From a phage, in NCBI GenBank assembly GCA_012813795.1, contig GCA_012813795.1_4087.1: a stretch of 64,000 nucleotides of DNA; one strand, given 5' to 3'. The notes under the pieces were generated by a model. It did no database searches. It was not told the origin of the DNA and saw nothing but the letters and a program-made list of their open reading frames with translations. Every line of letters begins with the position of its first letter. Position 1 is the stretch's first letter. This document shows positions 3,618 through 41,599 of this stretch, piece by piece. The translations under genes were made by a program, and so were the position numbers.

Positions 3618-4859
3618 TTATTTTTTACCATACCACTGCATTTCTCGAATATCGATTAGAACTTTTGCAGCTAGTTGAATGTTTGGTTTCTTTGGTAGAA
3701 CTGACTTAGGATACACCACATTGCGGATATAGTCAACCTTTTCATTGAAATAATCCATGACTTCTTCATATTTCCATTTGCCGTTGCGGATATCCATTAG
3801 CATATCAGCATCAGGACGTTTAACAAGGATAATACCGCTTTGTAATGCTTCTTCGGCACTATTTAGCAGCCTGATCGTATGCATAGCATGTTTTAAATCG
3901 AAGCCGTGCTGTGATTCCATAAGAGCACGTTTAGCATTACGATTCTCTTTCCATTTGTGATAACTTTTACGGTTCTCACTGTTCTCACTGTATTCTTTTT
4001 CATTGAATTTGACAATGAGTTCAGGTCGCACTTTCAATTCTTCAGTACTGCGTTCTTTGTTGAAATAACGTAAAGAACCATCAGCGTTAATTGTACTTTC
4101 ATTAGGATTGATAATAACACCAAAGATATTTTCACCGTAATGAATTAATTCGTACCCATTGTTATAATCCAATAAGTTGAAATCACGGTCTAGTACTTTA
4201 TCAGTACTGTAATTATGTACTAAACGTACAAAATGATACTGTTTCAACGGATGAGTTGAAACTAACTGCAATGAAGTATCACGCATGTATTTTTCAAAAT
4301 CAATTTTCTTAGCATTAAATGGATGTAGTTTAGAAGTATCTAAACGTTCTACCAAATAGTGTGGGAAATTTTCATACATCCATGCTAAAGTTTCATCTAC
4401 TGGAAAATCTTCTAAGATTTCATTTAGACGTTTTTCAGCAATACGCTCTTTATCCATCCACCCGTGGTGATTAGACATACGCTTAACCTGATTATATGCA
4501 TAACCGGTATAAGAGAATGCAATCTTAGAACTAAGTAATTGTTGATTGAATGTACGTAGATAATCATAGATTTCAGTACTTTCTACGATGTGTTCAGGAT
4601 CGACCCATAGTGATTCAAGAATATTTGGGTTAGCCTCTGTATATAGTCTTAAGTACTGGTTTAGTTCATAGAATTTAGTATCTTCTTCTCTTGAATCAGA
4701 AACTTCCTTTACATTATAAAAAGGCGTAAGGATGAATTCTTTGTTAGCAAGAAAAATACCACGATAATCCGTATCACTTTCAGGTGTACTGGTTCCATAC
4801 GCTTGTGAACCTGCTAAGTGCTTCACAATTGTTTGTTCAAGAAATTTGTTATTATTCAT
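3618..4859 (-). CDS. Pol-beta-superfamily nucleotidyltransferase (RlaP/PF10127-like)
   Basis: N-terminal HLAGSQAYGTSTPESDTDYRGIF fits the GS-x(9-13)-D-x-D minimal nucleotidyltransferase motif; 413 aa. Confidence 0.5.
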   Translation of the reverse strand: MNNNKFLEQTIVKHLAGSQAYGTSTPESDTDYRGIFLANKEFILTPFYNVKEVSDSREEDTKFYELNQYLRLYTEANPNILESLWVDPEHIVESTEIYDYLRTFNQQLLSSKIAFSYTGYAYNQVKRMSNHHGWMDKERIAEKRLNEILEDFPVDETLAWMYENFPHYLVERLDTSKLHPFNAKKIDFEKYMRDTSLQLVSTHPLKQYHFVRLVHNYSTDKVLDRDFNLLDYNNGYELIHYGENIFGVIINPNESTINADGSLRYFNKERSTEELKVRPELIVKFNEKEYSENSENRKSYHKWKENRNAKRALMESQHGFDLKHAMHTIRLLNSAEEALQSGIILVKRPDADMLMDIRNGKWKYEEVMDYFNEKVDYIRNVVYPKSVLPKKPNIQLAAKVLIDIREMQWYGKK

Positions 4860-22618: not shown

Positions 22619-24058
22619 TTACATATTTTCTTCTGCAAACTCTGCAAGTGCAGAACGTACAACACCTTCCAATTCAATGATACGACACCCTTCCCAATCT
22701 TTGAATTTTTCAGTTACATATGTCAAACCACTATTAACTGGACTAATAAACTTACTATCAATCTGTGCTAAGTTACCCATAATGATAACCTTACAGTTTT
22801 GACCAGCACGGGTAAGAATAGTCTTTGCCTGTGCAGGGGTGATGTTCTGGAATTCATCTACAATTAGAATTGTATTAGTAAAAGAACGACCACGAATAAA
22901 GTTCAATGCTTTAAACTGCATTACGTTACGTTTGAGAATCTCTTCAATGCTACCTTGTGGGTTAGCATCATCTTTGTGTAGATACTCTAGAGCATCGATT
23001 GCAGCCCCACAGAATGGGATGACCTTTTCAGCTTCAGAACCAGGCAAGAAACCAATTTCTTCAAATTGAGAATCTTGTGTTTTGGAGAAGATTATACGAT
23101 CATATTTACGTTTTTCCAGCACTAATTCAAGGGAAGTAGCAACGGTAATCAGTGTTTTACCAGTACCTGCTGAACCTAGTAGTACTGTCAAATGTACATC
23201 AGGGTCAAGAATACTGTTAATTGCTAGTGCCTGTTGAATATTCTTTGCTTTAATATCCCAAACTTTAGCACGAAGAGCGATACTTTGACCAATATCCTGG
23301 AATACCAAAATATCTTCAGGTGTTAGTGAACCGTCTTCTTCTTCGATAGCAGATTGACCTTCGTATACGAATAGTACATCAGCATTATCATATAGATAAT
23401 CACCAATACATAGATTATCTGGTAGAACATCTTGAATCAATGCGGTTGGAATATAGTGATATAGACGGCGACCTTCTTGTTGGGATTTAATTTCAGCATT
23501 GTTAACTTCACTGAATGTTTTCCAGAAATCAATATCAAGGTGGTGCTGTCCAATATGAATCAACTCACTATCTTCGATTGCAACGTCATGGCGGTAATCT
23601 TGTACCTCAACACCGTAGCTCATTGCTTTGATACGCATGTTAATGTCGCGAGTTACCAGTACTGATTGTGATGCCAAAGCCACTAGAATGATTTTGTCAT
23701 CTGGTACAGTACTTTTAAGTAGAGTTTCTACTTTATCTTCACTGCCGCCCATACGAATAAGTGCTTCAGCTTCTTCATTCGTCATAACGAATAGCTTACT
23801 GGATGCATCCATATTTTTGTGGATATTGGCAATATTAACACCAGTACTGCTGATTTCTTCATGAGTAGCATCTTTCAGAATTGCATCGATGTTACGGATT
23901 GCGAAACGTGCATCACGTGATACGTCAACATTACGGCTCTTGATTGAATCAAGTTCTTCAAGAACAGTGAATGGTAGAATCACTGCTGCCCCATCAAATG
24001 CTACGGTTGCATTTGGATCGGATAGTAGTACGTTTGTGTCAATTGTGTATTTTTTCAT
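22619..24058 (-). CDS. phoH: PIN-domain / PhoH-like ATPase fusion (PhoH2/YlaK-type)
   Basis: N-terminal PIN-like acidic residues (YTIDTNVLL ... LEELD); C-terminal Walker A LLGSAGTGKT and PhoH core ILIVDEFQN; start set at ATG 24058 with AAGGA upstream. Confidence 0.8.
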   Translation of the reverse strand: MKKYTIDTNVLLSDPNATVAFDGAAVILPFTVLEELDSIKSRNVDVSRDARFAIRNIDAILKDATHEEISSTGVNIANIHKNMDASSKLFVMTNEEAEALIRMGGSEDKVETLLKSTVPDDKIILVALASQSVLVTRDINMRIKAMSYGVEVQDYRHDVAIEDSELIHIGQHHLDIDFWKTFSEVNNAEIKSQQEGRRLYHYIPTALIQDVLPDNLCIGDYLYDNADVLFVYEGQSAIEEEDGSLTPEDILVFQDIGQSIALRAKVWDIKAKNIQQALAINSILDPDVHLTVLLGSAGTGKTLITVATSLELVLEKRKYDRIIFSKTQDSQFEEIGFLPGSEAEKVIPFCGAAIDALEYLHKDDANPQGSIEEILKRNVMQFKALNFIRGRSFTNTILIVDEFQNITPAQAKTILTRAGQNCKVIIMGNLAQIDSKFISPVNSGLTYVTEKFKDWEGCRIIELEGVVRSALAEFAEENM

Positions 24059-24122
24059 AAAACATCCTTGAGTTATGAGCACATCCTTGTGCTCTACGGT
24101 AGATTATAGACTCAGACACTTC

Positions 24123-24422
24123 TTATTGTGGCTCATAGTCAACGTAGCAGCGGTGACCGCGAGCCTTTTCTGTCCAGCATTCATTGTAAACAATTTGCCC
24201 AACTGAAACTGGTTTCCTTGATGCTCCATACTTAATAGACCCATCTTCAGTCTTATAAGTAAATGAACATGTATTTTCTTCACACTGCCCTATGTCAGTA
24301 ACAACAGCAGTACGGTAGTATATATCTCTGTGTTTGGTTTGATCTTGATGATAAAAGAACCAAAACCCAATAAGAAATATAATACTTGTGATTATAAAGC
24401 TTTGTATATGATGTTTTGTCAA
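24123..24422 (-). CDS. Small membrane protein
   Basis: N-terminal transmembrane helix SFIITSIIFLIGFWFFY. Confidence 0.45.
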   Translation of the reverse strand: MTKHHIQSFIITSIIFLIGFWFFYHQDQTKHRDIYYRTAVVTDIGQCEENTCSFTYKTEDGSIKYGASRKPVSVGQIVYNECWTEKARGHRCYVDYEPQ

Positions 24423-24751
24423 TTGTCCCCTCTCAAAAATCTAAAACCATTCTGTAAGTACGTGTCAATGTTGACCTTCCCTACAGGATTACTGCTATGG
24501 ATGATATAATCGAATTCAGTACTGATATTGTTTTCGACCATATAATCAATTAGAAATTTTGCAAATGAATACCCTGTCTTTTCATCCTCCCCAACATCAC
24601 CTAAGTCATGATCGAAGCTAATAAATTGTGGTAAACCATGTTCATTTACATAAGCACATGCACTTTCATAATCACGACATAAAACCATGTTTTGATTTGG
24701 ATAATACTTTTCAGGATCACGAATATCATCCAGAAACATTGAGTAAGACAT
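24419..24751 (-). CDS. hypothetical protein
   Basis: 110-aa ORF. Confidence 0.45.
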   Translation of the reverse strand: MSYSMFLDDIRDPEKYYPNQNMVLCRDYESACAYVNEHGLPQFISFDHDLGDVGEDEKTGYSFAKFLIDYMVENNISTEFDYIIHSSNPVGKVNIDTYLQNGFRFLRGDN

Positions 24752-24762
24752 TATAATTCACC

Positions 24763-25311
24763 TTATAAGTAACTAATCAGTAAATTCTCGGATTGAACAA
24801 GATGTTCTAATTCCATTTTAGCAGTTCCTATGAAGTTTTGTGTCATAAGATTATTATATCCTGCTTCTCGGTTTTGTCCCTTTGAATAACGAGAAATGTG
24901 ACATAAATTAACACCAGCCACTTCTGCACTTGCATGTTTAGCAGTACTGTATCCATCGCGAATCGCTTTCAATTCTTCGTAAGTAACTTCATAACTATAG
25001 CTATGGGTATGTGCTCCTGGATATAGTTCGTAAGTTTTCAATGGTTTCAATTGTTCGATAAAAATATTATAATTCATCTCTTCCTGAATTTCACGGAATA
25101 GTGCATCTTCTAAGGTGGCATCGGTATCTTCGACTGTTCCACCACAACCACCCAGTAAACCATCCCAACGAAGCTGGAGTAATACCAGATTCACAACAGG
25201 GATATCATTTAATTCATAACCTTTATATGGGTTACAATTTCGAGCAAAGAAGTAACAGAATACAAAGTTTGCTCGTTTACCATACTCACCTAGAGGTACT
25301 TCTCGAATCAT
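24763..25311 (-). CDS. hypothetical protein, divergent Nudix-like motif
   Basis: GGTVEDTDATLEDALFREIQEEMN approximates the Nudix box G-x5-E-x7-REUxEE but with altered spacing; weak. Confidence 0.3.
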   Translation of the reverse strand: MIREVPLGEYGKRANFVFCYFFARNCNPYKGYELNDIPVVNLVLLQLRWDGLLGGCGGTVEDTDATLEDALFREIQEEMNYNIFIEQLKPLKTYELYPGAHTHSYSYEVTYEELKAIRDGYSTAKHASAEVAGVNLCHISRYSKGQNREAGYNNLMTQNFIGTAKMELEHLVQSENLLISYL

Positions 25312-26060
25312 TTCATTCTATCCTTAATGATAGTTTCCAGTACTGGAATCGCTTTTGTAGCTGGTTTTATAATTTTTTCATTGAACATGAAATCGTTATC
25401 ATTTTTTCTGATGTTGATATTAACACTAAAGCATGGTAAACAAGCAACCAGATGTGACCATTTCAGTACTGTGTCACTGCTACCAATGACTACAACTGTA
25501 TCATCTTCTGTTAAGGATTGCAATACTAAATTACGCTCATCGTATATTGGGAGTTTTTCACCATCAACATAACGATAATATTCACCAATGAACACTACGT
25601 TTGGTTTCGCAAAGACACCTTCTTTCGGAATGTACGGTTCATAACCACAATCCACAATACTATAATCGTCACCACCAATTGTAAAATTCTCAATAACTTC
25701 TTTTAAATTACCATGTAACTTTAATTCATTACCACCAATACGAGTATAGAGATCATCCATATTCGAAGTCATATGTAAAAAGTTATCCCCGTATGTATCT
25801 TCTAGAGATTTGATATAATAATGCATATCATTAGGAACACAATCTTTCATTTTATCACGTAATGTATTATAGAAAGTGTGTACTAAATGATACTTAGTAC
25901 TAAGACGTGCAATGTTACATACATCATTTATTTGAAATTGATCCCATAGACCATCGTCCATGCGAAACGGTTCCATCCCACTTTCAACGGATAGACCTGC
26001 ACCGGAAATAACCAATACACGTTTATTACCTTTATTTTTTATAAAAGAGTCAGAAATCAT
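25308..26060 (-). CDS. Sir2-family NAD-dependent protein
   Basis: VLVISGAGLSVESGMEPFR (GAGxS ... PxFR), LHGN, PNVVFIGE and VVVIGSSDTV match Sir2 NAD-binding motifs. Confidence 0.6.
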   Translation of the reverse strand: MISDSFIKNKGNKRVLVISGAGLSVESGMEPFRMDDGLWDQFQINDVCNIARLSTKYHLVHTFYNTLRDKMKDCVPNDMHYYIKSLEDTYGDNFLHMTSNMDDLYTRIGGNELKLHGNLKEVIENFTIGGDDYSIVDCGYEPYIPKEGVFAKPNVVFIGEYYRYVDGEKLPIYDERNLVLQSLTEDDTVVVIGSSDTVLKWSHLVACLPCFSVNINIRKNDNDFMFNEKIIKPATKAIPVLETIIKDRMK

Positions 26061-26269
26061 AGCTTACCTACTGTACCTAATGAACTCAAATCATATACAA
26101 ATAATATACACACAACAGAGATGATAATATGATATACCATCCATCCATTGAATTTCTCTTTGTTTTTGATAATTTTATATATACATTTAATATTATTGTA
26201 CGCTGCAACTGCTAGAAATACAACAACAAAATAAACAAAGCATAGTGAAAAGTAATTGATAGTTATCAT
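26057..26269 (-). CDS. Small membrane protein
   Basis: Two predicted transmembrane helices; AAGGAG upstream. Confidence 0.4.
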   Translation of the reverse strand: MITINYFSLCFVYFVVVFLAVAAYNNIKCIYKIIKNKEKFNGWMVYHIIISVVCILFVYDLSSLGTVGKL

Positions 26270-26299
26270 AGTTATAATACTCTCCTTATTAAATTAATA

Positions 26300-26328
26300 T
26301 AGGGGATTATAAGAATCCCCTTTTTTGT
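26300..26328. terminator. Hairpin-plus-T-tract terminator candidate, orientation ambiguous
   Basis: Stem ggggatt/aatcccc (26303-26321) followed on the plus strand by tttttt; lies between two minus-strand genes. Confidence 0.4.
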
Positions 26329-26329
26329 A

Positions 26330-26932
26330 TTACAGCTTAGGATAGCTTAGTAAATCATACTCAGCACTAACGCTGGTGACATTATCACTTACAATTTTGA
26401 AGATAGAATCGGTGCGGTCAACCATCTTAACACCTGTTTCTTTTTGAACTTCAATATATGCTTGCATAGCTGCAATTGCATGATATGTCCCACTACCTAC
26501 TGACGTAATTTGAGTCTTCGGCTGGAGTACTGAAAAATCCCCTTGAACTTCATAAATTGTATGATTGTGGAGAATAATAAACTGTCCACCACCAACGTCT
26601 TGAGTTGTATCACGAGCACCCCATTCTTCTTTAAAGAGTGTGCGAATACGTGGGATTACCTCAAGTACTAAGTACTGTGAGAATGTTTGGTTTGATTGCT
26701 GTTCAGGTAAATCAAGTTTATACGTCAGCAATTGTCCCATGCGGAAGCTCGACGTGTATCCCATTGCCATAACTTCTTTGGTGCGATTCAATCCACTTTC
26801 ATCGATTTTGATGAATTCTTTTTCAAACACTTTTGGTTCAGTTTGAATTGCTTTAGTGAAACCATTACTACCCAGTTTGTCACCAGCGATAAAAGATGTG
26901 TTACCATCAGTATAAGCAATAATACAAGTCAT
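26330..26932 (-). CDS. HslV/proteasome-beta-like Ntn hydrolase
   Basis: N-terminus MTCIIAYTDGNTSFIAGD (Thr after Met, then IAGD) and later VGSGTYHAIAAMQA resemble HslV TTIVSV ... IAGD and IGSGGPYAQAAA. Confidence 0.55.
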   Translation of the reverse strand: MTCIIAYTDGNTSFIAGDKLGSNGFTKAIQTEPKVFEKEFIKIDESGLNRTKEVMAMGYTSSFRMGQLLTYKLDLPEQQSNQTFSQYLVLEVIPRIRTLFKEEWGARDTTQDVGGGQFIILHNHTIYEVQGDFSVLQPKTQITSVGSGTYHAIAAMQAYIEVQKETGVKMVDRTDSIFKIVSDNVTSVSAEYDLLSYPKL

Positions 26933-26943
26933 TGATATCTCCG

Positions 26944-27207
26944 TTATAAAAGGTGTGTTACATCTAAGATTGTGTACATGAAATACAATAGTAAACCCAA
27001 AATTATGAGTAAAATTGTATACGAAATTTTAAAGAAATAATAAAAGTACTTTTCAGTTTTAGAAGAAAACTCACCATTTTCTTCAAGAAAACCACTCTTA
27101 AAATCACTTGCCATAATCACTGATAAAAGAACAATGATTCCATATGTAACTATAGTAGCATAGAAGATGAACTCTGTCCAGCCTTGAAGATGTGATAATT
27201 CTGTCAT
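26944..27207 (-). CDS. Small membrane protein
   Basis: Two hydrophobic helices. Confidence 0.45.
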   Translation of the reverse strand: MTELSHLQGWTEFIFYATIVTYGIIVLLSVIMASDFKSGFLEENGEFSSKTEKYFYYFFKISYTILLIILGLLLYFMYTILDVTHLL

Positions 27208-27333
27208 TTTTTGTTTCCTTGGTTGTTAATGTACAACCATTATATCTTAAAATCGGGTGGCAGTACACCACCCTTAACCAAAATCATGAATTAGTATTAG
27301 GATTATATCATTGCTTCATAAAAAATACAACTT

Positions 27334-27939
27334 TTATTGAATAATTCCCCATTTAACTAGATCTGTTCTTCGTAAGACAACGATATCCTCACCATGTTTA
27401 GTACTGATATCAATGAGTGTTTCAGCGGGGATACCGTTATGTGCGTACAGTGTAAAAAGATACCCAACTTTAGTTGAGACTTGATGTGTAAACTCCATCA
27501 ACTGTCTAACTGAAACGAATGTAGTATCTGGATCTGCACCATTCGTAGATACCAGTGAGATGTTATGTAAACCCATCACTGCGGTATCACTCATATCCCT
27601 ACGTTCAGTTGATGCAGAGAAAAAAACCAGACTACAAGACGAATTACATTGCTTTGGGACATAAACAGTTAACTTTTTAGCAGCCACAAACAATCCCAAA
27701 TCTAATCCTGCATCAAAATCTCCACCTGGTGATGTAATTGTTAAAATTTTAAATCTTGTTTCTTTCCACAACTTCTTCACTTCTTGTACAGTTTCATCAT
27801 TTAGTTCACCATCAATTGACACAACATGTTCATTTAATAGAAAAACAGATGATTTTTTTGAAACTTCTGCCGCTGCCGGAAAGTTTAATGCAGCGATTAA
27901 AACAACGGTTTGTACAATCTCTTTCAAGATTCGTTTCAT
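27334..27939 (-). CDS. Signal-peptide-bearing ClpP/NfeD-fold serine peptidase-like protein
   Basis: N-terminal signal peptide (LIAALNFPAAAEV) then ITSPGGDFDAGLDL resembling the ClpP-family SPGG oxyanion motif. Confidence 0.45.
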   Translation of the reverse strand: MKRILKEIVQTVVLIAALNFPAAAEVSKKSSVFLLNEHVVSIDGELNDETVQEVKKLWKETRFKILTITSPGGDFDAGLDLGLFVAAKKLTVYVPKQCNSSCSLVFFSASTERRDMSDTAVMGLHNISLVSTNGADPDTTFVSVRQLMEFTHQVSTKVGYLFTLYAHNGIPAETLIDISTKHGEDIVVLRRTDLVKWGIIQ

Positions 27940-28083
27940 TTATTACCTCGGATTTGAGTTAAGGAACATAAATAATAGTATAATAATTGATCAATTATGT
28001 CAAGTACAAAACTGAACAATTATGACTGTAGTATCAAGTGTTTTTGTTAAGTTCATTGATTTACCAATTGACCATTTGAACTA

Positions 28084-28096
28084 TGGTATCATATTG
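28084..28096 (+). promoter_or_regulatory. Possible extended -10 promoter for the plus-strand Ig-like cassette
   Basis: TGgTATCAT at 28084-28092 about 45 nt upstream of ATG 28139; in the 200-bp divergent intergenic region. Confidence 0.25.
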
Positions 28097-28138
28097 GGAG
28101 GCAGTTTGCAATCCCATTTTTTAAGGTAAGGAGATGTT

Positions 28139-31100
28139 ATGAAACCAATAGCTGGCTTAGATCAATTTCCATTTGTTATAGGTGGATTGCAGGTTACTGC
28201 TGCAAAGATAGAAGGGCAAGTATTTGTTAAAGAATTGTATGTTATAAAACAAAGAACATTCGATTCGTATGATTTGATATCTGAAAATTTCAAGATTTAC
28301 AAAGATATAAAAATCACAGGTAGAAATAAAGATAAATCAACATTGACGTATGATGATGACGATGCTGAAATTGCTAAATCTTTAGCAAATAATACATTTT
28401 GCATAAAAGAATCTGATGATTTTAACAAAAAATATGGTTTTGGTATACAATATCAATTGAATAAAATAAAATTACATAATGGTGAAGTGATATTTAGACA
28501 ATCCTCAATTCGACCATCAGTACTTAATGGTGTTTTCATTACACCGAGTTCATTTGAGATTGATGTTGGTCAACAACAAGTATTTGACGCGATATATGAT
28601 CCACAAAGTTGGATTAATAAAAATGGTACTTGGGATTATGATAAATCAGTTTTTGATGTGGTTTCTTTTACACAAACATCAATCACACTTCTCGCTAAAC
28701 AAGATGCCATTAATACAGAAATAAAATATTCACCTACTGGACGAGAAATAAATCGCATAGCAGTCAGTATAGGTTCAGTAGTAGATAACACTTCTATAAT
28801 TAAAAACATTTCAATAACACCTAATGTCATAAATTCCAAATTATCTGAAGATTTTACAGTTAATGTAGTTTATGATCCTATCAAATATAAATTCAAATCA
28901 GGTAAATGGTCTGTCAGTGATACATCAGTACTACAATTTGTTTCTGGTGATGGTGAAACTGCGACATTTAAACCTATCAGCGTTGGTTCTTCCACAATAA
29001 CATTCACATTAGATAAAGATAGTACAAAAACTGCAACTGCATCAGTTGAAGTATCTTATGCAGATTTAAAATCCGTCACAATATCACCAGAAAATGTAAC
29101 TGGTACTATAGGTGAAACTGGTAGTATTTCAATAAGTTATGTACCAGATAATGCACAAAAAGGTGGTTCATGGGCTATTTCTGATAAATTAATACTAAAA
29201 GAATTATCATCGACAATATCAGAATTTGATTATGAATTGGTTGGTAATGGAACAACATATGCTACATTCGTCCCATTAGCTAATTATGATGGTTCAATGA
29301 TAACTGCTAAATTTGATGTTAACTATTCAAAACTTGAAAACATTGTTCTTACACCTTCATCAGTTAGTAATCTAGTTCCAGGCGACACAGGAAAAATTAG
29401 TATTGAATATACACCAAGTACTGTTGAAACTGGTGGTACATGGTCATTCAATCCAACTGGTGTAATAGAACAAGATCTCAGCAAAAGTACGAGTACTGAA
29501 ATGTATTATAATGTATTAATCCCAGGTACATCAACTGCAACATTCCACCCAACTGCGTCATATGATGGAACTCCTAAAACTGTTTCATTTGAAGTTGGGA
29601 ATTCCGAGTTAACTGGTATTACGCTAACACCTACTACATCAACCGTAAAAATTGGTGATGATTTCTATATTGATATTACATATGAACCAAACACTGCTCT
29701 ACATGAAGGTACATGGAATACATCAGATTTTGAGAAATATGTAACACTCGAATCAGATAGTACACCTGATCGTGCACATTTTAAAGCTATAGGTGTGATT
29801 GATTCTGTTAATCTGACATATTCAAAAGGAACAATTAGTGCAACTAACAAATGTGCAGTTAATTATTCTGATTTAAAATCTATCACATTAAGTCCAACTG
29901 CAACATATGCTAAACTTGGTGATGATTTCTATGTAGATATTGCATATGATCCAGACACAGCACAACACACGGGTTCATGGAATACATCAGATTTTGAGAA
30001 ATATGTAACACTAGAATCAGATAGTACACCTGACCGTGCACACTTCAAAGCAATTGATTTAGTTGATGAAGTTGATTTGGTATATTCGAATGGTAATATA
30101 AGTGATACGAATTATTGTGGAGTTAGTCGTCCACCATTAATTTCAGTTTCATTGTCACCTTCTTCTGAAAAAGTTAAAGTTGGTGATTCCTTTAATGTGA
30201 AGATTACATATAACCCTAATACTGCTCAACATTACGGTGAATGGAATTTGGATGAAATAAAAGAATATCTTACATATGATTCGGATCTTAGTGTTTATGA
30301 TGTGGCTGTGTTTGATGTTATTAAACGTTCTGAAACACCAATAGAATTGAAATTTACAAGTGCAGGTAAAACTGCAACAAACACTTGTGAATTTGAAGAA
30401 GCTGTGTTAACCGGAATTTCATTGAAAATACAAGAAAATACGCCAATATACGACAGCCTATATGTTGTACCATATAAAGGTGACATATATATTGATGTTC
30501 TACCTATTCCAGCCGACGCAAAATTACCAGACGATATTGGAACCATCACTGATAATACGGGATTATATGATTTAACGTTTTTTGATTTTTTGAGTTTTAA
30601 TAAAGAAAAAAGTACAAATCACCGTTTGTATTTTGATTTTGTTTCATCATTTGATGAGTATATGTATTTTATTGAGGAATCTTCAAAAGGATTAATATTC
30701 ACATATACACTGTCTAATGGTATGACGGTAGACTCACCGGCAATGGTAACAAATTTTCCAGAACTGACGAAAGTCACCCTTGTGCCATCATCTGGAAAAT
30801 GTGATGTTAACTCAATAATAAAATGCGAGGCAACACTTGATAATGGTATGTCAACTTATTATATTAATCCGTTGAGTACTTATACAAGTGAACACGAGGA
30901 TTATTTGGTAATTGAAGATAGAACATCCTTTCAGCCGTTTGATGAATTCCTTGAACCAATTGAAATTGTAGGTAAACTTCCAACAAATATATATGTACCA
31001 GATGGTAATTACGTATATTTCACATATACACTATCAACCACACCTGCCCAACCGTTGATTGATTATAATATTTACATATATGATAGTAATGAATGTATAA

Positions 31101-31426
31101 AAGGACGTATAAAAAATCCAACAGACGTAGTTAACATAAAATATATGAATGTCTTTTTCTTTGACATAGAGAATAATCCACCAAATGCTTTATATAGAGG
31201 AAAAATGGAAGGTGGTATTCCTGTTACGTTTCAATATGACACCCAAAATTCTAGATTAAATTCGTATACTTATATGGTACAGGGGGTAACTGATGGACCA
31301 ATAACTCTAAAATACACTTCATCTGCTACTGGTGTTATTAGAACTGCACAAGTTGATGTTACTGGACCAATGACTGATGATAGTAATAAAACTGATGAGG
31401 GGGGTGATGGTGATTTACTTAAATGA
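28139..31426 (+). CDS. Giant Ig-like (Big_2/Hoc-like) repeat protein 1
   Basis: 1095 aa built from ~85-90-aa repeats with Y.DLKS ... GD.FY.DI.Y.PDTA.H.G.W ... F.A pattern; AAGGAGA upstream; two near-identical 264-bp tandem DNA repeats inside. Confidence 0.65.
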   Translation: MKPIAGLDQFPFVIGGLQVTAAKIEGQVFVKELYVIKQRTFDSYDLISENFKIYKDIKITGRNKDKSTLTYDDDDAEIAKSLANNTFCIKESDDFNKKYGFGIQYQLNKIKLHNGEVIFRQSSIRPSVLNGVFITPSSFEIDVGQQQVFDAIYDPQSWINKNGTWDYDKSVFDVVSFTQTSITLLAKQDAINTEIKYSPTGREINRIAVSIGSVVDNTSIIKNISITPNVINSKLSEDFTVNVVYDPIKYKFKSGKWSVSDTSVLQFVSGDGETATFKPISVGSSTITFTLDKDSTKTATASVEVSYADLKSVTISPENVTGTIGETGSISISYVPDNAQKGGSWAISDKLILKELSSTISEFDYELVGNGTTYATFVPLANYDGSMITAKFDVNYSKLENIVLTPSSVSNLVPGDTGKISIEYTPSTVETGGTWSFNPTGVIEQDLSKSTSTEMYYNVLIPGTSTATFHPTASYDGTPKTVSFEVGNSELTGITLTPTTSTVKIGDDFYIDITYEPNTALHEGTWNTSDFEKYVTLESDSTPDRAHFKAIGVIDSVNLTYSKGTISATNKCAVNYSDLKSITLSPTATYAKLGDDFYVDIAYDPDTAQHTGSWNTSDFEKYVTLESDSTPDRAHFKAIDLVDEVDLVYSNGNISDTNYCGVSRPPLISVSLSPSSEKVKVGDSFNVKITYNPNTAQHYGEWNLDEIKEYLTYDSDLSVYDVAVFDVIKRSETPIELKFTSAGKTATNTCEFEEAVLTGISLKIQENTPIYDSLYVVPYKGDIYIDVLPIPADAKLPDDIGTITDNTGLYDLTFFDFLSFNKEKSTNHRLYFDFVSSFDEYMYFIEESSKGLIFTYTLSNGMTVDSPAMVTNFPELTKVTLVPSSGKCDVNSIIKCEATLDNGMSTYYINPLSTYTSEHEDYLVIEDRTSFQPFDEFLEPIEIVGKLPTNIYVPDGNYVYFTYTLSTTPAQPLIDYNIYIYDSNECIKGRIKNPTDVVNIKYMNVFFFDIENNPPNALYRGKMEGGIPVTFQYDTQNSRLNSYTYMVQGVTDGPITLKYTSSATGVIRTAQVDVTGPMTDDSNKTDEGGDGDLLK

Positions 31427-31462
31427 TTATAAATTAATTTTAATGCTAAGGAGAAATATTTT

Positions 31463-33982
31463 ATGGCAGAATTAAAATCAATTAGATTTAACAATAATGG
31501 TGTTGTAAACAGCACCATTTATAAAACCAGTACTATAACGGTTACATATGACCCAGTTGATTGGTATGATCAAACTGGGAAATGGGTATATGATAGTACG
31601 TATATTAAAGTGTTGTATAGGAGTGGTGAGAAACTTATTTTCAAAACACTCAAAGAAGGAAACACAAATATATCATTTTCACCAACTAATTATGATTCTT
31701 TAAAACAAACGTGTACTGTTGATATTCATACCGATACAGTTCAAAGTATCTCATTGAATCCAACTGAAAACATGTTGAAGTATAGTTCTGAATTTGAAAT
31801 CGATGTCACTTATAACCCACCAATTGGCACGGATCTTCCAACATGGACATATGATAAAAATGTTTTAACATATGATGCTGAAAAAAGTACAAGGGATAAA
31901 GCTTTCTTTAAAGTAAATTCTAGTGTTTTAAGTCCAGTATCAGGTAAGATTACATGTACGTATGGTGTAGATTTATCAGCGGAAAGTTTTTATTACGTGT
32001 CCGAAAACCCCGCATCACGTGTAAAATTGTCTCCTGATACATCAAACGTACTACTTGGTGATACGTTCTCAGTTAATATTTTATATGATCCACTTGGGTG
32101 TGATAAAACTGGTGTATGGAGTTACGATGATACATGTCTTGAATACAACGAATCACGCTCAACTTCTGATGTTGCATATTTTAAAGCAATTAAAACACCA
32201 GAAGGAAATAATGACACGTTAAAATTAACATATAAATGTGCATCATCCGTGTCCGATTCAACAACGTGTACAATATCATATGATCCATTGCAATCAGTTA
32301 AATTGACAACAATCCCAGCTTCATTGAATCCAGATGCAATGATAAACGTAAAAGCTGGGGATGGGTTTAGTGTTAAGGTCACATATGTCCCAGACACCGC
32401 CAGACATGATGGTGTTTTGAATTTTAACCCACTATATTTCACCTATGAAAAAGACCAATCTGCACAAGACACTTTTTTAATCACACCAATTCTACCATCT
32501 ATAGACACTGATGAACCTGTGCAGCCGATATCTTTTACTTCTAACGGGATTATATCAAATATACTCAATTTCACAATAGATTATTCTGACCTTGTTTCGG
32601 TATCTTTTGACCCACCAGAAGTTAATACAACCGCTGGTTCTGTATTTGGTGTAACTGTGATTTATAATCCAAGCACAGCTAAAAATGACGGTGAATGGAA
32701 CATTGCTAATGTTCTGGATTATATTAAAAAAGGAACAACAGTCGGTGATTCAACTTCATTCCAATCTTTGAAAGCCACAGTTGATAGTGATGGAAACCCA
32801 TCAAGTATAGATATGGTTTACAAAAGTGGTTATATCAGTACACCTATTAAATGTAACATTGATTATAGTGAGTTGAAATCTATTAATGTAAAATGTGATC
32901 CGTCATATCCACTGAATACTTCTCTTGGGATAATAGCAACATATACACCAGACACCGCAAAACATGATGGTGTATGGACATGTTCATCAGATTTAATTCC
33001 AGGTGCATCTACTCCAGATCTTGGGTCATTCCGTACAGGTAAATTAGTAAATGCAAAAAGTGTAGTTACTGTAACATCTAAATCCAATAAAGATATTGGT
33101 GCATCATGTGGATTTACCTCAACTTATTCTAAGTTAAAAGGTATAACAGTAACACCACTTGGAACAACAACAGTTAAACCTGGTGATTCATTTGGTATAC
33201 AAATATCGTATAATCCAAACACTGCACAGCATCTTGGTATGTATAATTGGGATTTTAACCCTGATTATTTTGAATATAACTATGAGTTGTCAGAGCCAAA
33301 CAAAGATATACAATATTTTAATGCTTTATTACCCACACCAGAAGAAGGTTCAGTACTAACATGTCTCCCACCTGAAGGGTCTGGTGCTACATCTGGTAAA
33401 TGTGTAATAACCGTTAGTTATCCTCCAATCAAATCAGTGTCTATTGAACCACCTGAATCAACTCATAAATTTGGTGATGTGTTCAACCTTATCGTGAAAT
33501 ATGATCCAGATACAGCAAGAAAAATGGGTACATGGGAATATGATAAAGATCGAATAGCATTAGTTAATCCGGTAACCGACCTTAACGATCAAGCAACATT
33601 TTATGTTATCAATAACGGTATAGGTGGAGAAACGGATATATCATATTCATATTATCCAGGCGTAACTGCAACACATAAGTGTACTGTAGAATATGAAAAC
33701 TTGGATACCCTAAGTTTAGTTCCTCCAAGAATCAAGAAAAAACCAGGTAATACTTTCTATATAAAAATCATATACACACCAGATGGTGCATTACATGATG
33801 GTACATGGACATACAATAAAACTGTATTTGAATATACACAGGAAAGTACTAAAGATTTGGGAGTTTTTAAAATTTCCGACACTGCTCCTGAAGGTGCATA
33901 CCAATTATCATATCAACCAAAAACTGCTGATCCAGATCAAACATTCCCACCTGTAATTTTACAATGCACTATTACAAAATAA
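31463..33982 (+). CDS. Giant Ig-like repeat protein 2
   Basis: 839 aa with the same repeat signature (YNPNTAQHLGMYNWD, YTPDTAKHDGVWT); AAGGAGA upstream. Confidence 0.65.
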   Translation: MAELKSIRFNNNGVVNSTIYKTSTITVTYDPVDWYDQTGKWVYDSTYIKVLYRSGEKLIFKTLKEGNTNISFSPTNYDSLKQTCTVDIHTDTVQSISLNPTENMLKYSSEFEIDVTYNPPIGTDLPTWTYDKNVLTYDAEKSTRDKAFFKVNSSVLSPVSGKITCTYGVDLSAESFYYVSENPASRVKLSPDTSNVLLGDTFSVNILYDPLGCDKTGVWSYDDTCLEYNESRSTSDVAYFKAIKTPEGNNDTLKLTYKCASSVSDSTTCTISYDPLQSVKLTTIPASLNPDAMINVKAGDGFSVKVTYVPDTARHDGVLNFNPLYFTYEKDQSAQDTFLITPILPSIDTDEPVQPISFTSNGIISNILNFTIDYSDLVSVSFDPPEVNTTAGSVFGVTVIYNPSTAKNDGEWNIANVLDYIKKGTTVGDSTSFQSLKATVDSDGNPSSIDMVYKSGYISTPIKCNIDYSELKSINVKCDPSYPLNTSLGIIATYTPDTAKHDGVWTCSSDLIPGASTPDLGSFRTGKLVNAKSVVTVTSKSNKDIGASCGFTSTYSKLKGITVTPLGTTTVKPGDSFGIQISYNPNTAQHLGMYNWDFNPDYFEYNYELSEPNKDIQYFNALLPTPEEGSVLTCLPPEGSGATSGKCVITVSYPPIKSVSIEPPESTHKFGDVFNLIVKYDPDTARKMGTWEYDKDRIALVNPVTDLNDQATFYVINNGIGGETDISYSYYPGVTATHKCTVEYENLDTLSLVPPRIKKKPGNTFYIKIIYTPDGALHDGTWTYNKTVFEYTQESTKDLGVFKISDTAPEGAYQLSYQPKTADPDQTFPPVILQCTITK

Positions 33983-34052
33983 TAGACTGAAATTACTTTA
34001 CAAAAAAAATGTGGTTGAATATTCAACCACATAATAAGAAGGAAACATAATT

Positions 34053-35678
34053 ATGATAGAAGATTCAAAAAATCTTATTTCAGTTAGTTTAAACAAAAGA
34101 ACTATTAGAACTTCTGTTCGTGATGTTAACACATTATATGTTAGTTTTAATCCACCTGACTATATTAATCAGGTTGGAACATGGACATATGATGAACAGT
34201 ATATTGAAATGATCACACAAGATAATTTGGTTTTTGTTTTTAAATCTATAAAAAGTGGTGTAACCACCATAACATACACACCACGTGATAATAAAGCATT
34301 ATCGAAGAATTGTATAGTTAATATTGAAAAAATACCATTATCATCAATTAGTCTTAACCCAAATTATATAACTTTATACAAAGGTCAAACTTTTGATATT
34401 GATATATCATATATCCCAGATGGAGCAGTTCATTCGGGTAATTGGAGTAATTTAAACAATGATATATTGTATATAGGTCAACAAAGTACACCTGATAAAT
34501 CAAGAATGCAAGTACTAACAACTGATGCTAAGATGATAACTTTATATTATACCAGTGGCGAAATATCAGTTCCTTTGAATTGTACTATATTGAACAACCC
34601 AGCAGATGAAATTATTTTCGATCCACCATCACCAATTAATGTAACAGTTGGTGAGAGTTTTTTTGTAAACATAAACTATGCACCAGAAAATGCGGATAAG
34701 GTTGGATTCTGGGAATATGATGATTCAGTACTGATGTTATTGAATGATAGTGATAAGGCATCCAGTGCACATTTTGTGGCTACCAAAAAAACCACATCAA
34801 CTGGAACTGAACTTAAATTCCGTTCAGGTGATGTGTACTCAACGTTACAGTGCTTTATAACTCCTGGTGTTTTAGATTTATTAACATTAACACCTAGTTA
34901 TGAAACGGTGGTTGTTGGTGACGCGTTTGACATTGGAATAACCTATTACCCAGAAGACATAATTCACAAAGGTATATGGGAATATGATTCTACATATTTC
35001 AAAAAAATGTTCGATGACTCAAATACTGCAACATTTAGATTAATCAAAAAATCCGACATACCATTAAAATTAAGATATATCTCTTATGGGAGAGCATTTA
35101 ATAATATATGCACTACTGTTGAAAATGGTGATTTAGTTTCATTACAATTAAACCCTAATTCCGAATCAGTTGAGGTTGGTAAAAGTTTTGATATCGCAAT
35201 AACATATAAACCTGATAATGCTTTACATAGTGGTATATGGGATTTCGATTCGGAATATATTAAATTGGAAAAATCAAGTACAGTGGATAAAGCAACATTT
35301 ACAGTACTGAAATATAATCCAAATCCATTAACATTAACTTATAAATCAGGTAAAACAACTGCAACAAACAAATGTATTACTGTAAAAAATACACCAGTAT
35401 TAAGTAGTATTAAAGTATCCCCAGAATCAACTGAAATGAAAGTTGGTGATACAGTATTATTATCAATTTCATACAACCCTAATACAGTAGAGCATATGGG
35501 AATGTGGTATTATGATAAAAAACTATTCAAATTAATAGACACAGGTCAAACACATGACTATGGTATATTTGAATGCTTGGCGGTGTCAGACGCAAAATCA
35601 CCAATAGTATTTTCAAGTGCTGGAAATGCTGATGCTTGTATTGTCACAACTAAAGAAAAAACAACTAAAGAGGATTAA
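34053..35678 (+). CDS. Giant Ig-like repeat protein 3
   Basis: 541 aa, same repeat signature (YIPDGAVHSGNW, YKPDNALHSGIW). Confidence 0.65.
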   Translation: MIEDSKNLISVSLNKRTIRTSVRDVNTLYVSFNPPDYINQVGTWTYDEQYIEMITQDNLVFVFKSIKSGVTTITYTPRDNKALSKNCIVNIEKIPLSSISLNPNYITLYKGQTFDIDISYIPDGAVHSGNWSNLNNDILYIGQQSTPDKSRMQVLTTDAKMITLYYTSGEISVPLNCTILNNPADEIIFDPPSPINVTVGESFFVNINYAPENADKVGFWEYDDSVLMLLNDSDKASSAHFVATKKTTSTGTELKFRSGDVYSTLQCFITPGVLDLLTLTPSYETVVVGDAFDIGITYYPEDIIHKGIWEYDSTYFKKMFDDSNTATFRLIKKSDIPLKLRYISYGRAFNNICTTVENGDLVSLQLNPNSESVEVGKSFDIAITYKPDNALHSGIWDFDSEYIKLEKSSTVDKATFTVLKYNPNPLTLTYKSGKTTATNKCITVKNTPVLSSIKVSPESTEMKVGDTVLLSISYNPNTVEHMGMWYYDKKLFKLIDTGQTHDYGIFECLAVSDAKSPIVFSSAGNADACIVTTKEKTTKED

Positions 35679-35681
35679 ATC

Positions 35682-40903: not shown

Positions 40904-41599
40904 TTATACCCACTCTTCCACGCCACCGCGACGTTTAACTAGGTATTGACCTTTTTCATTACGTGGACCAAGGATAATACCATCGATAAATCCAAGTTCA
41001 CCATACTCAAGTGCTTCATCTGCACTCAACCACAAATCGCGGTCCGCATCTTCTAGTAGTTTTTCATGAGAAACACCTACAGCTTCAGCGATTTCTTTCG
41101 TCAGCAATGTGTTCAATGCATCAGAGTGTTTTAGTGCAATTTTCTGATCAGTGATCAGACCTTGTGTACCAGAACTTACTTGGTGACACATAAAGTACGA
41201 GCGTTTACCACCAAGACGATAACCTTTAGTACCAACTACTGATTGTGTGTAGCAACCCATTGATGCTGCATAACCCATCACTACTGTGCGGATTGGTGAT
41301 ACACAAGATTTAGCAATATCAGAAATACCCAAACCTGCATGAACACTACCACCCGGCGAGGAAATATAAAGAGTAATTGGTTCAGAACCTTGAGAATCCA
41401 ACCACACCAATTGTTGCTTGATGATATGTGCCATTTGGTCGTTGAAATCAGTATCAAGGAAAATGATACGGTCTTGCATCATACGAGATGCTAGATCATA
41501 AGTACGTTCGTTGCCATTAACTTTTTCAACTACATATGGAATTGAAATGTTAGTTGTTTCACCATTCGCATAACCACCAAACATAAATTGTTGAGTCAT
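40904..41599 (-). CDS. clpP: ATP-dependent Clp protease proteolytic subunit-like peptidase
   Basis: LYISSPGGSVHAGLGI and VVMGYAASMGCY match ClpP oxyanion and catalytic-Ser regions (GxAASMG). Confidence 0.8.
   Translation of the reverse strand: MTQQFMFGGYANGETTNISIPYVVEKVNGNERTYDLASRMMQDRIIFLDTDFNDQMAHIIKQQLVWLDSQGSEPITLYISSPGGSVHAGLGISDIAKSCVSPIRTVVMGYAASMGCYTQSVVGTKGYRLGGKRSYFMCHQVSSGTQGLITDQKIALKHSDALNTLLTKEIAEAVGVSHEKLLEDADRDLWLSADEALEYGELGFIDGIILGPRNEKGQYLVKRRGGVEEWV

What the first reader, a model, noticed from the sequence alone, without database searches (positions are those of the whole stretch)
26330..27939. Cluster of protease-fold genes: HslV-like Ntn hydrolase and a signal-peptide-bearing ClpP/NfeD-like protein, plus canonical ClpP at 40904-41599
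Gene 26330-26932 begins MTCIIAY...IAGD with Thr directly after Met and has a later GSG...AAA segment, like HslV/proteasome beta subunits. Gene 27334-27939 has a cleavable-looking signal peptide followed by a ClpP-family SPGG motif, suggesting a periplasmic or membrane peptidase or a pseudo-protease. A canonical ClpP with intact GxAASMG lies at 40904-41599. Three peptidase-fold proteins in one accessory region suggests proteolytic remodelling of host or phage proteins; the secreted ClpP-like protein sits divergently next to the Ig-like cassette.
Basis: partly seen in the sequence, partly recalled or inferred. Interest (0 to 1): 0.5.

Follow-up and report, generated by a model that had tools for sequence, protein, structure and literature searches.

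The report
Three protease genes in jumbo phage
A giant E. coli phage carries three genuine, apparently active protease genes (a proteasome/HslV-like one, a ClpP-like one exported to the periplasm, and a standard ClpP); public records of sister phages already label them this way, so the finding is correct but largely ordinary.

Summary
All three ORFs exist on the minus strand at the stated coordinates, in an Asteriusvirus (121Q/PBECO4-like) jumbo coliphage 98% identical to phage A4.

- **Gene 1 (26330-26932)** is a proteasome-type Ntn hydrolase. The model has pLDDT 91 and its best folds are HslV and BPH. Its family keeps T2, D18, K34, G58 and G146-S-G148, which correspond to Thr1/Asp17/Lys33/Gly47/GSG.
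- **Gene 3 (40904-41599)** is a canonical ClpP (S113/H139/D188). It is not the prohead protease, and relatives of this phage encode their own ClpA.

None of the three orthologs is in the phAPEC6 virion proteome. Sister genomes already annotate these genes as "ClpYQ-like" and "ClpP-like" proteases, and phage proteasome homologs are described in the literature. Substrates and any functional link among the three remain unknown. Interest is low to moderate; the exported ClpP-like family is the only fresh angle.

The parts
26330..26932 (-). Gene 1: cytoplasmic proteasome/HslV-type N-terminal-nucleophile (Thr) peptidase, 200 aa. Catalytic codons: T2 at 26927-26929, D18 at 26879-26881, K34 at 26831-26833, G58 at 26759-26761, G146-S147-G148 at 26489-26497.
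   Evidence: PHROG 1040 at E 1.5e-21. NCBIfam HslV at 2e-5, a local match below the cutoff. AF2 model pLDDT 90.9. Foldseek: HslV E 3.6e-9, BPH TM 0.69. hhalign against HslV: 96% probability. Invariant M1 T2 C3 D18 K34 F63 G146 G148 in 26 sequences. Codons verified.
26944..27207 (-). Small 87-aa two-TM membrane protein lying between gene 2 and gene 1. It ends 11 nt before gene 1 here and overlaps gene 1 by 4 nt in 121Q. Function unknown.
   Evidence: Two hydrophobic segments, 10-41 and 54-87. Ortholog 121Q_474 is 39% identical. No Pfam or PHROG hit. A TM gene in this position is not a general feature of distant gene 1 loci.
27334..27939 (-). Gene 2: exported ClpP-fold Ser/His peptidase, 201 aa. 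SPGG at 27721-27732; C98 at 27646-27648; nucleophile S100 at 27640-27642; C102 at 27634-27636; H125 at 27565-27567.
27868..27939 (-). Predicted Sec signal peptide of gene 2 (residues 1-24: n-region MKRILKE, h-region IVQTVVLIAALNF, c-region PAAA, with cleavage predicted after A24).
   Evidence: The only 19-mer with KD above 1.6 is at residues 8-26. The model shows helix 2-19 followed by a linker with pLDDT below 50 at 20-27. The motif F-P-A-x-A is conserved in the clade. 144 of 169 family members have an N-terminal hydrophobic segment, against 1 of 64 in the gene 1 family. SignalP was not available.
27975..28003 (-). Best sigma-70-like promoter match (TTGACA-17-TACTAT), 36 nt upstream of the gene 2 start, in the divergent intergenic region. 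A candidate promoter for gene 2, the TM gene and gene 1.
   Evidence: It is the only 10/12 match in 25900-28300, but the overall number of matches there is not above chance (13 found, 12 expected). This is a consensus match only.
26301..26321 (.). GC-rich hairpin (AGGGGATT-loop-AATCCCCT) just downstream of the gene 1 stop codon; a possible terminator or RNA-stability element.
   Evidence: Terminator-like scan: 5 sites found against 0.9 expected in the region. The T-run is better on the + strand than on the - strand.
40904..41599 (-). Gene 3: canonical ClpP, 231 aa. SPGG starts at 41357-41359; S113 at 41261-41263; H139 at 41183-41185; D188 at 41036-41038. The N-terminal axial-loop motif IPYVVEK is preceded by a 19-residue extension.
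   Evidence: Pfam CLP_protease at 7.7e-42. NCBIfam ClpP models at 1e-46, below the equivalog cutoffs. PDB ClpPs at 1e-37, with AASMG / HQ / DRD aligned. About 36% identity to E. coli ClpP and 60% to the ClpP of the distant Rak2-like contig L006. Neighbours are DNA ligase, a phosphoesterase and DnaJ, not head genes.

Best explanation
The window comes from an Asteriusvirus jumbo coliphage that encodes three separate, probably active, non-virion peptidases working in two compartments.

(1) Gene 1 is a cytoplasmic proteasome-family (HslV/BPH-like, 'group I') threonine peptidase. Host methionine aminopeptidase removes Met1 and exposes Thr as the N-terminal nucleophile. That Thr acts with Asp18, Lys34, the oxyanion Gly58 and the G146-S-G148 loop. 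By analogy it forms stacked rings, working either alone or with host HslU, since no phage HslU is seen.

(2) Gene 2 is made with a Sec signal peptide, is cleaved after Ala24, and acts in the periplasm as an ATP-independent ClpP-fold serine peptidase. It uses a Ser100-His125 pair and the SPGG oxyanion loop, and the nucleophile is flanked by the conserved Cys98 and Cys102.

(3) Gene 3 is a true ClpP (Ser113-His139-Asp188). It most likely pairs with the ClpA-type unfoldase that this phage lineage encodes elsewhere, and possibly with host ClpX or ClpA, giving a phage-controlled ClpAP degradation machine.

What is shown: the folds, the catalytic-residue conservation, the export-signal features, the absence from virions, and the presence of ClpA in the lineage. 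What is inferred: enzymatic activity, oligomeric state, partners, and every substrate.
For: Identity of the genome.

Gene 1. The D18-to-K34 spacing is 16 residues, the same as D17-to-K33 in HslV. The family definition (Thr1/Asp17/Lys33/Gly47) and the existence of phage-borne group I homologs come from PMC8665760.

Gene 2.

Gene 3. Its context is not the head module. phAPEC6 has a separate prohead protease, gp227c, next to the major capsid protein.

ClpA: the Rak2-like phage ClpA ortholog matches E. coli ClpA at E 1.5e-177, and a copy about 75% identical to it lies in phAPEC6, Sharanji and other Asteriusviruses. PMC6102473 notes that ClpA is conserved in Rak2-like phages.

Virion status: orthologs gp345c, gp346c and gp353c are absent from the phAPEC6 virion MS table, whereas their neighbours gp341c and gp347 are listed.
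Against: There are no biochemical or expression data for any of the three.

Gene 1 scores far below the curated HslV cutoffs (24 bits against 137), so it is not an HslV ortholog, and its dependence on HslU is a guess.

Gene 2 has no conserved acidic residue at the ClpP Asp171 position, so its catalytic efficiency is uncertain. Its signal peptide has unusually conserved E7 and Q10, so it could instead be an uncleaved membrane anchor. A cytoplasmic phage ClpP-like protein (L004) also has the CxSxC motif, which weakens the disulfide idea.

The ClpA gene is not in this window, and the rest of this phage's genome was not available to me.
Confidence: 0.8

Rival explanations
1. The three genes, or at least gene 2, the small TM gene and gene 1, form one functionally linked proteolytic module: a membrane-spanning system in which the periplasmic ClpP-like enzyme, the two-TM protein and the cytoplasmic HslV-like enzyme act on a common pathway.
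For: Gene 2, the TM gene and gene 1 are contiguous and on the same strand. A promoter-like site lies upstream and a hairpin downstream. The order is kept in A4, 121Q and phAPEC6. In an unrelated-looking phage lineage (L004, L012) a ClpP-fold gene (PHROG 1827) again sits just upstream of the HslV-like gene.
Against: L006 and L008 carry gene 2 homologs without an HslV-like gene. L010 and L011 carry HslV-like genes without an adjacent ClpP-like gene. The ClpP-like protein of L004 and L012 is cytoplasmic and belongs to a different family from gene 2. The TM gene is absent from L012. All of these contigs share PhoH, dCMP deaminase and ligase synteny, so the adjacency may simply be inherited.
Confidence: 0.15
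2. Gene 2 is a catalytically dead ClpP-fold protein (a pseudo-protease, binding protein or chaperone-like scaffold) in the envelope.
For: The ClpP catalytic Asp is not conserved. Curated ClpP, NfeD and SppA models hit only below threshold.
Against: Ser100 (151/167), His125 (144/146) and the SxGG oxyanion loop (165-166/167) are conserved across about 150 cluster representatives (clusters at 50% identity), aligned at positions matching the ClpP nucleophile and base. Ser-His and Ser-Lys dyads are functional in relatives of this fold such as SppA and NfeD 1510-N (established knowledge).
Confidence: 0.12
3. Gene 3 and/or gene 2 are head-maturation (prohead) proteases, as the RefSeq 121Q annotation ('head maturation protease') and the PHROG 94 label suggest.
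For: PHROG 94, 2976, 133 and 1684 'head maturation protease' hits for gene 3. Weak NCBIfam Clp_rel_HeadMat hits for gene 2 and its relatives.
Against: Gene 3 matches cellular ClpP full-length, including the N-terminal axial loop, and sits among ligase, phosphoesterase and DnaJ genes. The lineage has a T4-type 'prohead core scaffold and protease' next to the scaffold, MCP and portal genes (gp227c; also Sharanji). The orthologs are not in the virion proteome. Gene 2 has a signal peptide.
Confidence: 0.04
4. Gene 1 is not a protease but a proteasome-fold ligase or transpeptidase of the connectase type.
For: The only Pfam hit is to the connectase MJ0548-like N-terminal domain (E 0.0075, residues 1-19).
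Against: The hit covers only the shared N-terminal hairpin and is below the cutoff. Connectase is not among the top 50 fold matches, which are HslV, BPH, 20S beta and Anbu. All four flanking helices are present, whereas connectase lacks the first pair (PMC8665760; model).
Confidence: 0.04

Closest known systems
HslV (ClpQ) and the 'group I' proteasome-like homologs (BPH, AAH, CPH, PPH) of Fuchs, Alva & Lupas 2021 (PMC8665760)
   Same: The same Ntn fold with four flanking helices and no C-terminal S12/H5 elements. Thr directly follows Met. The Thr1/Asp17/Lys33 spacing is identical to HslV, and the oxyanion Gly and the GSG loop are present. Like other phage HslV-like genes (e.g. pSal-SNUABM-04, PMC7823757), it has no accompanying HslU.
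   Different: Identity to HslV is only 15-19%, and the score is far below the curated HslV cutoffs. Cys is invariant at position 2 of the mature protein, where HslV has Thr. Asteriusviruses have a roughly 16-20-residue extension of the S3-S4 hairpin (residues 37-57). It is longer than PPH (about 140 aa). Which named cluster it falls into could not be tested.
ClpP (MEROPS S14)
   Different: Gene 2 has a signal peptide, lacks the N-terminal axial loop and the catalytic Asp, has CxSxC around the nucleophile, and would sit in a compartment without ATP or unfoldases. Gene 3 is only about 36% identical to host ClpP and carries a 19-residue N-terminal extension.
SppA (S49 signal peptide peptidase) and NfeD / 1510-N membrane-bound ClpP-class proteases
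   Same: Both are extracytoplasmic or membrane-associated, ATP-independent members of the ClpP/crotonase fold that use a catalytic dyad. That is the same cellular logic proposed for gene 2.
Annotated orthologs in sister phages (121Q genes 475, 473 and 464; A4_469, A4_467 and A4_455; phAPEC6 gp345c, gp346c and gp353c)
   Same: Same genes in the same order, at 43-100% identity. 121Q notes read 'protease (ClpYQ-like)' and 'protease (ClpP-like)'. A4 labels them 'protease', 'ClpP/crotonase-like domain protein' and 'Clp protease'.
   Different: Nothing of substance. The public records do not mention the signal peptide or catalytic residues, and RefSeq calls the ClpP a head maturation protease, which is probably wrong.

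Membership tests
Proteasome-like family (HslV / 20S beta / BPH) | Ntn-hydrolase alpha-beta-beta-alpha fold with the conserved S1-S11 sheet core and flanking helices H1-H4 | tested here: met
   The AF2 model has pLDDT 90.9 and helices at 63-72, 84-103, 149-166 and 170-184. Foldseek returns HslV, BPH, 20S beta and Anbu at probability 1.00.
Proteasome-like family (HslV / 20S beta / BPH) | N-terminal nucleophile Thr1 (or Ser1) exposed after removal of Met or a propeptide | tested here: met
   M1-T2 is invariant in 26 family members. Actual Met removal was not tested.
Proteasome-like family (HslV / 20S beta / BPH) | Asp17 and Lys33 of the catalytic triad, the oxyanion Gly47, and the Gly-Ser-Gly loop | tested here: met
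   D18, K34, G146 and G148 are invariant, and G58 is conserved at 90% or more. The D-to-K spacing of 16 residues equals that of HslV. The hhalign register around K34 is shifted by 3 residues because of a gap, so K34=Lys33 rests on the spacing, the invariance and the strand position.
HslV proper (equivalog; partner of HslU) | Score above the curated HslV model cutoffs, and functional coupling to HslU | tested here: not met
   NCBIfam NF003964 scores 24.2 bits against a cutoff of 137, and TIGR03692 scores 22.9 against 157.75. No AAA+ domain was found among the 10 large window ORFs scanned against Pfam; smaller ORFs were not scanned. HslU dependence cannot be tested here.
ClpP (S14), applied to gene 3 | Full-length CLP_protease domain with the Ser-His-Asp triad and the SPGG oxyanion loop | tested here: met
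   Pfam scores 143.7 bits against a cutoff of 20.2. S113, H139 and D188 align with AASMG / HQ / (E/D)RD of solved ClpPs. The score is below the NCBIfam equivalog cutoffs (156 against 308), so this is a diverged ClpP.
ClpP (S14), applied to gene 3 | Docks to a Clp/Hsp100 unfoldase (ClpX, ClpA or ClpC) through IGF/IGL loops | not testable with these tools
   A ClpA ortholog exists in the lineage and carries 'RSIGV' where, from my memory of the E. coli ClpA sequence, the IGL docking loop sits. Binding was not tested.
ClpP (S14), applied to gene 2 | ClpP fold with Ser and His at the catalytic positions | tested here: met
ClpP (S14), applied to gene 2 | Catalytic Asp (Asp171 in E. coli), the N-terminal axial loop, and a Pfam or NCBIfam score above cutoff | tested here: not met
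   No conserved acidic residue lies at the aligned position. The mature N-terminus starts 6 residues before the first core strand. CLP_protease scores 15.3 bits against a cutoff of 20.2.
NfeD / SppA (membrane-associated ClpP-class peptidases) | Ser-Lys dyad; family HMM above cutoff; an NfeD OB-fold or stomatin partner, or the SppA tandem/oligomeric bowl | tested here: not met
Sec-exported protein (gene 2) | An n-h-c signal peptide with small residues at -3 and -1 | tested here: inconclusive
   The heuristic features all fit: MKRILKE, a 13-residue hydrophobic core, then P-A-A-A|E. SignalP and LipoP were not available, and the conserved E7 and Q10 leave a signal-anchor possible.

The most novel reading that the evidence does not exclude
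Gene 2 represents an undescribed, widespread family of envelope-located, ATP-independent ClpP-fold Ser/His peptidases. There are at least 1,720 cluster representatives (50% identity), the hallmark motif is SxGG…C-x-S-x-C…H, most members are secreted or lipoproteins, and no Pfam, NCBIfam or PADLOC model covers them. Jumbo phages would have recruited it to remodel the host periplasm or outer membrane during infection, for example to destroy receptors for superinfection exclusion, to process exported phage proteins, or to time lysis. The flanking cysteines might form a redox-sensitive clamp on the nucleophile.
Probability: 0.3. Interest if true: 0.6.

Novelty: already known. Interest (0 to 1): 0.28.

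Why it matters
The practical gains are modest.

1. It confirms, with structure-level and residue-level evidence, annotations that until now were only labels in GenBank.
2. It corrects a probable mis-annotation: the ClpP is not the head maturation protease.
3. It indicates that Asteriusvirus phages carry their own ClpA plus ClpP pair and an orphan proteasome-like peptidase. That fits the picture of jumbo phages bringing their own protein-quality-control or host-takeover machinery.
4. It flags an exported ClpP-fold family with conserved Ser/His and a CxSxC motif that no curated library covers. A phage-encoded periplasmic ClpP-like peptidase would be an unusual tool, and the phage context offers a tractable system for finding its substrates.

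No long-standing question becomes testable from this alone.

Tried and rejected
- Pairwise sequence search of genes 1 and 2 against the PDB gave only marginal or spurious hits (HslV at E 0.16; a calcium-channel fragment at E 0.17). Profiles and structure prediction were needed.
- Single-sequence hhalign of the narrow gene 2 alignment against ClpP gave only 18% probability. Rebuilding the profile from 169 distant domains raised it to 93.5% with the same register.
- PADLOC found no defence-system match for any of the three.
- I looked for an unfoldase partner inside the window. None was found among the 10 large ORFs scanned against Pfam. A ClpX query found no Asteriusvirus hit in the rows listed. 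A ClpA ortholog was then found in the lineage via a Klebsiella Rak2-like phage.
- I provisionally concluded that the three genes were fully independent modules. I then found a ClpP-like gene next to the HslV-like gene in L004 and L012, so a functional link is kept as a low-probability rival rather than dismissed.
- The idea that a small TM protein is a constant partner of the HslV-like gene is rejected, because L012, L010 and L011 lack it.
- The idea that C98/C102 must be a periplasmic disulfide is weakened, because a cytoplasmic phage ClpP-like protein also has CxSxC.
- The afdb50 fold library was unavailable, and model coordinates were not exposed. Active-site geometry and the Cys-Cys distance could therefore not be measured.
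- Assignment of gene 1 to a named Fuchs et al. cluster (AAH, CPH or other) was not possible, because their representative sequences could not be fetched.
Full report
**Where the window comes from.** Megablast of 24000-32000 finds Escherichia phage A4 (ON286972.1, genus Asteriusvirus, 355 kb) at 98% identity over window 24000-28498, and about 35 other 121Q/PBECO4-like jumbo coliphages at 74-79%. GC content is 30-38%, and almost every gene outside 28-38 kb is on the minus strand. The window is therefore part of a Rak2-like jumbo phage genome.

**The observation.** All three ORFs exist at exactly the stated coordinates, on the minus strand, with the quoted motifs. Orthologs are annotated in A4 as A4_469 'protease', A4_467 'ClpP/crotonase-like domain protein' and A4_455 'Clp protease'.

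**Gene 1 (26330-26932).**
- Profile evidence: PHROG 1040 'peptidase HslV family' at E 1.5e-21. NCBIfam HslV models hit locally (residues 118-173, E 2e-5) but far below the equivalog cutoffs.
- Homologs: 64 were found. An alignment of 26 of them, down to 26% identity, has invariant M1, T2, C3, D18, K34, F63, G146 and G148, and G58 is conserved at 90% or more. With Met removed these are Thr1, Asp17, Lys33, the oxyanion Gly and the Gly-Ser-Gly loop. This is the set that Fuchs, Alva & Lupas use to define the proteasome-like family (PMC8665760).
- Structure: the AlphaFold model is confident (pLDDT 90.9). Foldseek against the PDB returns HslV first (E 3.6e-9), BPH with the highest TM-score (0.69), then 20S beta subunits and Anbu. 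hhalign of the family against E. coli HslV gives 96% probability.
- Register around Lys33: that alignment inserts a 3-residue gap, which puts K34 opposite R36. However, the D18-to-K34 spacing of 16 residues equals D17-to-K33 in HslV, K34 is invariant, and it sits at the start of strand 35-43. I therefore equate it with Lys33.
- Classification: gene 1 is not an HslV ortholog, at 15-19% identity and sub-cutoff scores. It is a member of the HslV/BPH-like 'group I' radiation, in which phage-borne members (PPH, AAH, CPH) are already described. It has all four helices and about 180-200 residues, so it is not PPH. The exact cluster could not be determined.
- Other features: there is no signal sequence or TM segment. 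None of the 10 large window ORFs scanned against Pfam has an AAA+ domain, so no HslU-like gene was detected there. Another jumbo phage paper likewise reports HslV without HslU (PMC7823757).

**Gene 2 (27334-27939).**
- Profile evidence: curated models only brush it. CLP_protease scores 15.3 bits and NfeD1b_N 15.2 bits, both sub-threshold, while PHROG 26024 'protease' hits at 2e-60.
- Close relatives: they are few and all phage-like. In 19 sequences the invariant residues are S70-P-G-G-D-F-D76, C98, S100, C102, L124-H125-N126 and S128.
- Wider family: an exhaustive profile search found 1,720 cluster representatives at E ≤ 1e-3. Among the best 152, the conservation is S70 165/167, G72 163/167, G73 166/167, C98 154/167, S100 151/167, C102 165/167 and H125 144/146.
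- Catalytic mapping: a profile built from these relatives aligns to canonical ClpP at 93.5% probability. The segment C98-N-S100-S-C102 aligns without gaps to A-A-S113-M-G, and H125 aligns to H139 (same register). The nucleophile and general base are therefore conserved. The ClpP Asp has no conserved counterpart.
- Export: this is supported by several observations. There is a single hydrophobic segment at residues 8-26, preceded by a basic n-region (MKRILKE; three basic and one acidic residue) and followed by P-A-A-A|E. The motif F-P-A-x-A is conserved in the clade. N-terminal hydrophobic segments occur in 144 of 169 relatives, 22 of them lipobox-like, against 1 of 64 in the gene 1 family. C98 and C102 are the only cysteines in the mature protein.
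- Annotation of relatives: they have no above-cutoff Pfam or NCBIfam family. Bacterial members in Ferrimonas and Aliiglaciecola are 'hypothetical protein'.
- Caveats: E7 and Q10 inside the signal peptide are nearly invariant, which is odd for a mere export signal. A cytoplasmic phage ClpP-like protein also carries CxSxC, so a disulfide is not certain.

**Gene 3 (40904-41599).**
- It is a full-length ClpP: Pfam at 7.7e-42 and PDB ClpPs at 1e-37. SPGG starts at residue 81, and the triad is S113, H139 and D188. The axial-loop motif IPYVVEK is present.
- It is about 36% identical to E. coli ClpP and 60% identical to the ClpP of a distant Rak2-like contig, so it is an old phage gene rather than a recent host capture.
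- Its neighbours are DNA ligase, a metallophosphoesterase and a DnaJ-like protein.
- The lineage has a separate 'prohead core scaffold and protease' next to the scaffold, MCP and portal genes (phAPEC6 gp227c; Sharanji). The RefSeq label 'head maturation protease' for 121Q_464 is therefore most likely an over-transfer from PHROG 94.
- Rak2-like phages encode a ClpA ortholog. The 769-aa protein in L007 matches E. coli ClpA at E 1.5e-177 in one contiguous stretch. A copy about 75% identical to it is present in phAPEC6, Sharanji and other Asteriusviruses (33 Escherichia-phage records). This agrees with PMC6102473.
- The most economical reading is a phage-encoded ClpAP protease. The ClpA gene is not in this window.

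**Are the three linked?**
- Gene 2, an 87-aa two-TM gene and gene 1 are contiguous. The best promoter-like match of the region lies 36 nt upstream of gene 2, and a GC-rich hairpin follows gene 1. The order is kept in A4, 121Q and phAPEC6.
- The partnership is not kept elsewhere. L006 has gene 2 and gene 3 homologs but no gene 1. L008 has only gene 2. L010 and L011 have only gene 1.
- In the L004/L012 lineage, however, a different, cytoplasmic ClpP-fold gene (PHROG 1827, with a full triad) lies just upstream of the HslV-like gene.
- Because all these contigs share PhoH, dCMP deaminase and ligase synteny, inherited gene order explains the pattern as well as function does. I give a functional link about 15%.

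**Virion status.** In phAPEC6 the orthologs are gp345c, gp346c and gp353c. None is in the virion MS table, whereas the flanking gp341c (PhoH-like) and gp347 (Ig-like) are listed. All three peptidases therefore act in the infected cell.

**Verdict.** The novelty is low, because the labels already exist in public records and phage proteasome homologs and Clp components are in the literature. What this analysis adds is:
- residue-level and fold-level confirmation;
- evidence that gene 2 is exported, ClpP-like rather than NfeD-like, and probably active through a Ser/His pair;
- membership of gene 2 in a large family with no curated model;
- a likely phage ClpAP pairing for gene 3.

Substrates and biological roles remain unknown.

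Noticed in passing
window 22619-26060 (-); L006 8728-15925: A conserved block of PIN+PhoH ATPase, a small TM protein, a cREC_REC domain protein, a Nudt16-like NUDIX hydrolase and Sir2. In a distant Rak2-like contig the same block sits beside NMNAT-NUDIX, NAMPT (NAD salvage) and the anti-CBASS nuclease Acb1. This suggests an NAD-replenishment or counter-defence island directly abutting the protease genes.
   Followed up: partly
window 28139-37883 (+): Four very large Ig-like-repeat ORFs (1095, 839, 541 and 733 aa) on the opposite strand. Nucleotide identity to the nearest phage, A4, stops at about 28498. In 121Q and phAPEC6 this locus holds a single 14-kDa Ig-domain protein (gp347) that is an abundant virion protein. 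The locus is a hypervariable, expanded structural-decoration cassette.
   Followed up: partly
window 22619-24082 versus 26330-26932; L004, L010, L012: A PhoH-family gene lies within about 2 kb of the HslV-like gene in 4 of 5 sampled lineages, a more consistent neighbour than any ClpP-like gene. The PhoH-like protein is also detected in phAPEC6 virions.
   Followed up: no
L004 6668-7435; L012 1679-2566: A separate family of cytoplasmic phage ClpP-like proteins (PHROG 1827 'ATP-dependent protease', 255-295 aa, with Ser/His/Asp present and an acidic, Lys-rich C-terminal tail) is encoded immediately upstream of the HslV-like gene. The L004 copy also has a CxSxC motif around the nucleophile.
   Followed up: partly
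window 27868-27939 (gene 2 residues 1-24): The signal peptide has nearly invariant E7, Q10, F20 and P21 across 19 homologs that are only 33-71% identical overall. That is more constraint than export alone requires, and it may mean a retained membrane helix or a specific interaction.
   Followed up: no
121Q gene 464 (RefSeq NC_025447.1), the ortholog of window 40904-41599: The RefSeq product name 'head maturation protease' for the canonical ClpP appears to be an over-transfer from PHROG 94. The lineage's real prohead protease is encoded next to the scaffold, MCP and portal genes.
   Followed up: yes
gene 1 homologs P0001 and P0002: Proteins 100% identical to gene 1 are filed in NCBI as 'hypothetical protein [Escherichia coli]' on 357-359 kb contigs. 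Whole jumbo-phage genomes are therefore sitting in E. coli assemblies, and the window may come from such a record.
   Followed up: no
window 26057-26269 (-) and 26301-26321: An extra 70-aa two-TM ORF lies between gene 1 and Sir2. It is present in A4 and has no annotated counterpart in 121Q, where the corresponding interval is an unannotated gap. It is preceded by a perfect 8-bp-stem GC-rich hairpin that looks like a bidirectional terminator.
   Followed up: no
window 3618-4859 (-), 14333-16138 (-), 6903-9671 (-), 10256-12955 (-): An RlaP-type (RNA-repair pathway) nucleotidyltransferase and an anaerobic ribonucleotide reductase NrdD are present. Two ORFs of about 900 aa have no Pfam match at all.
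   Followed up: no
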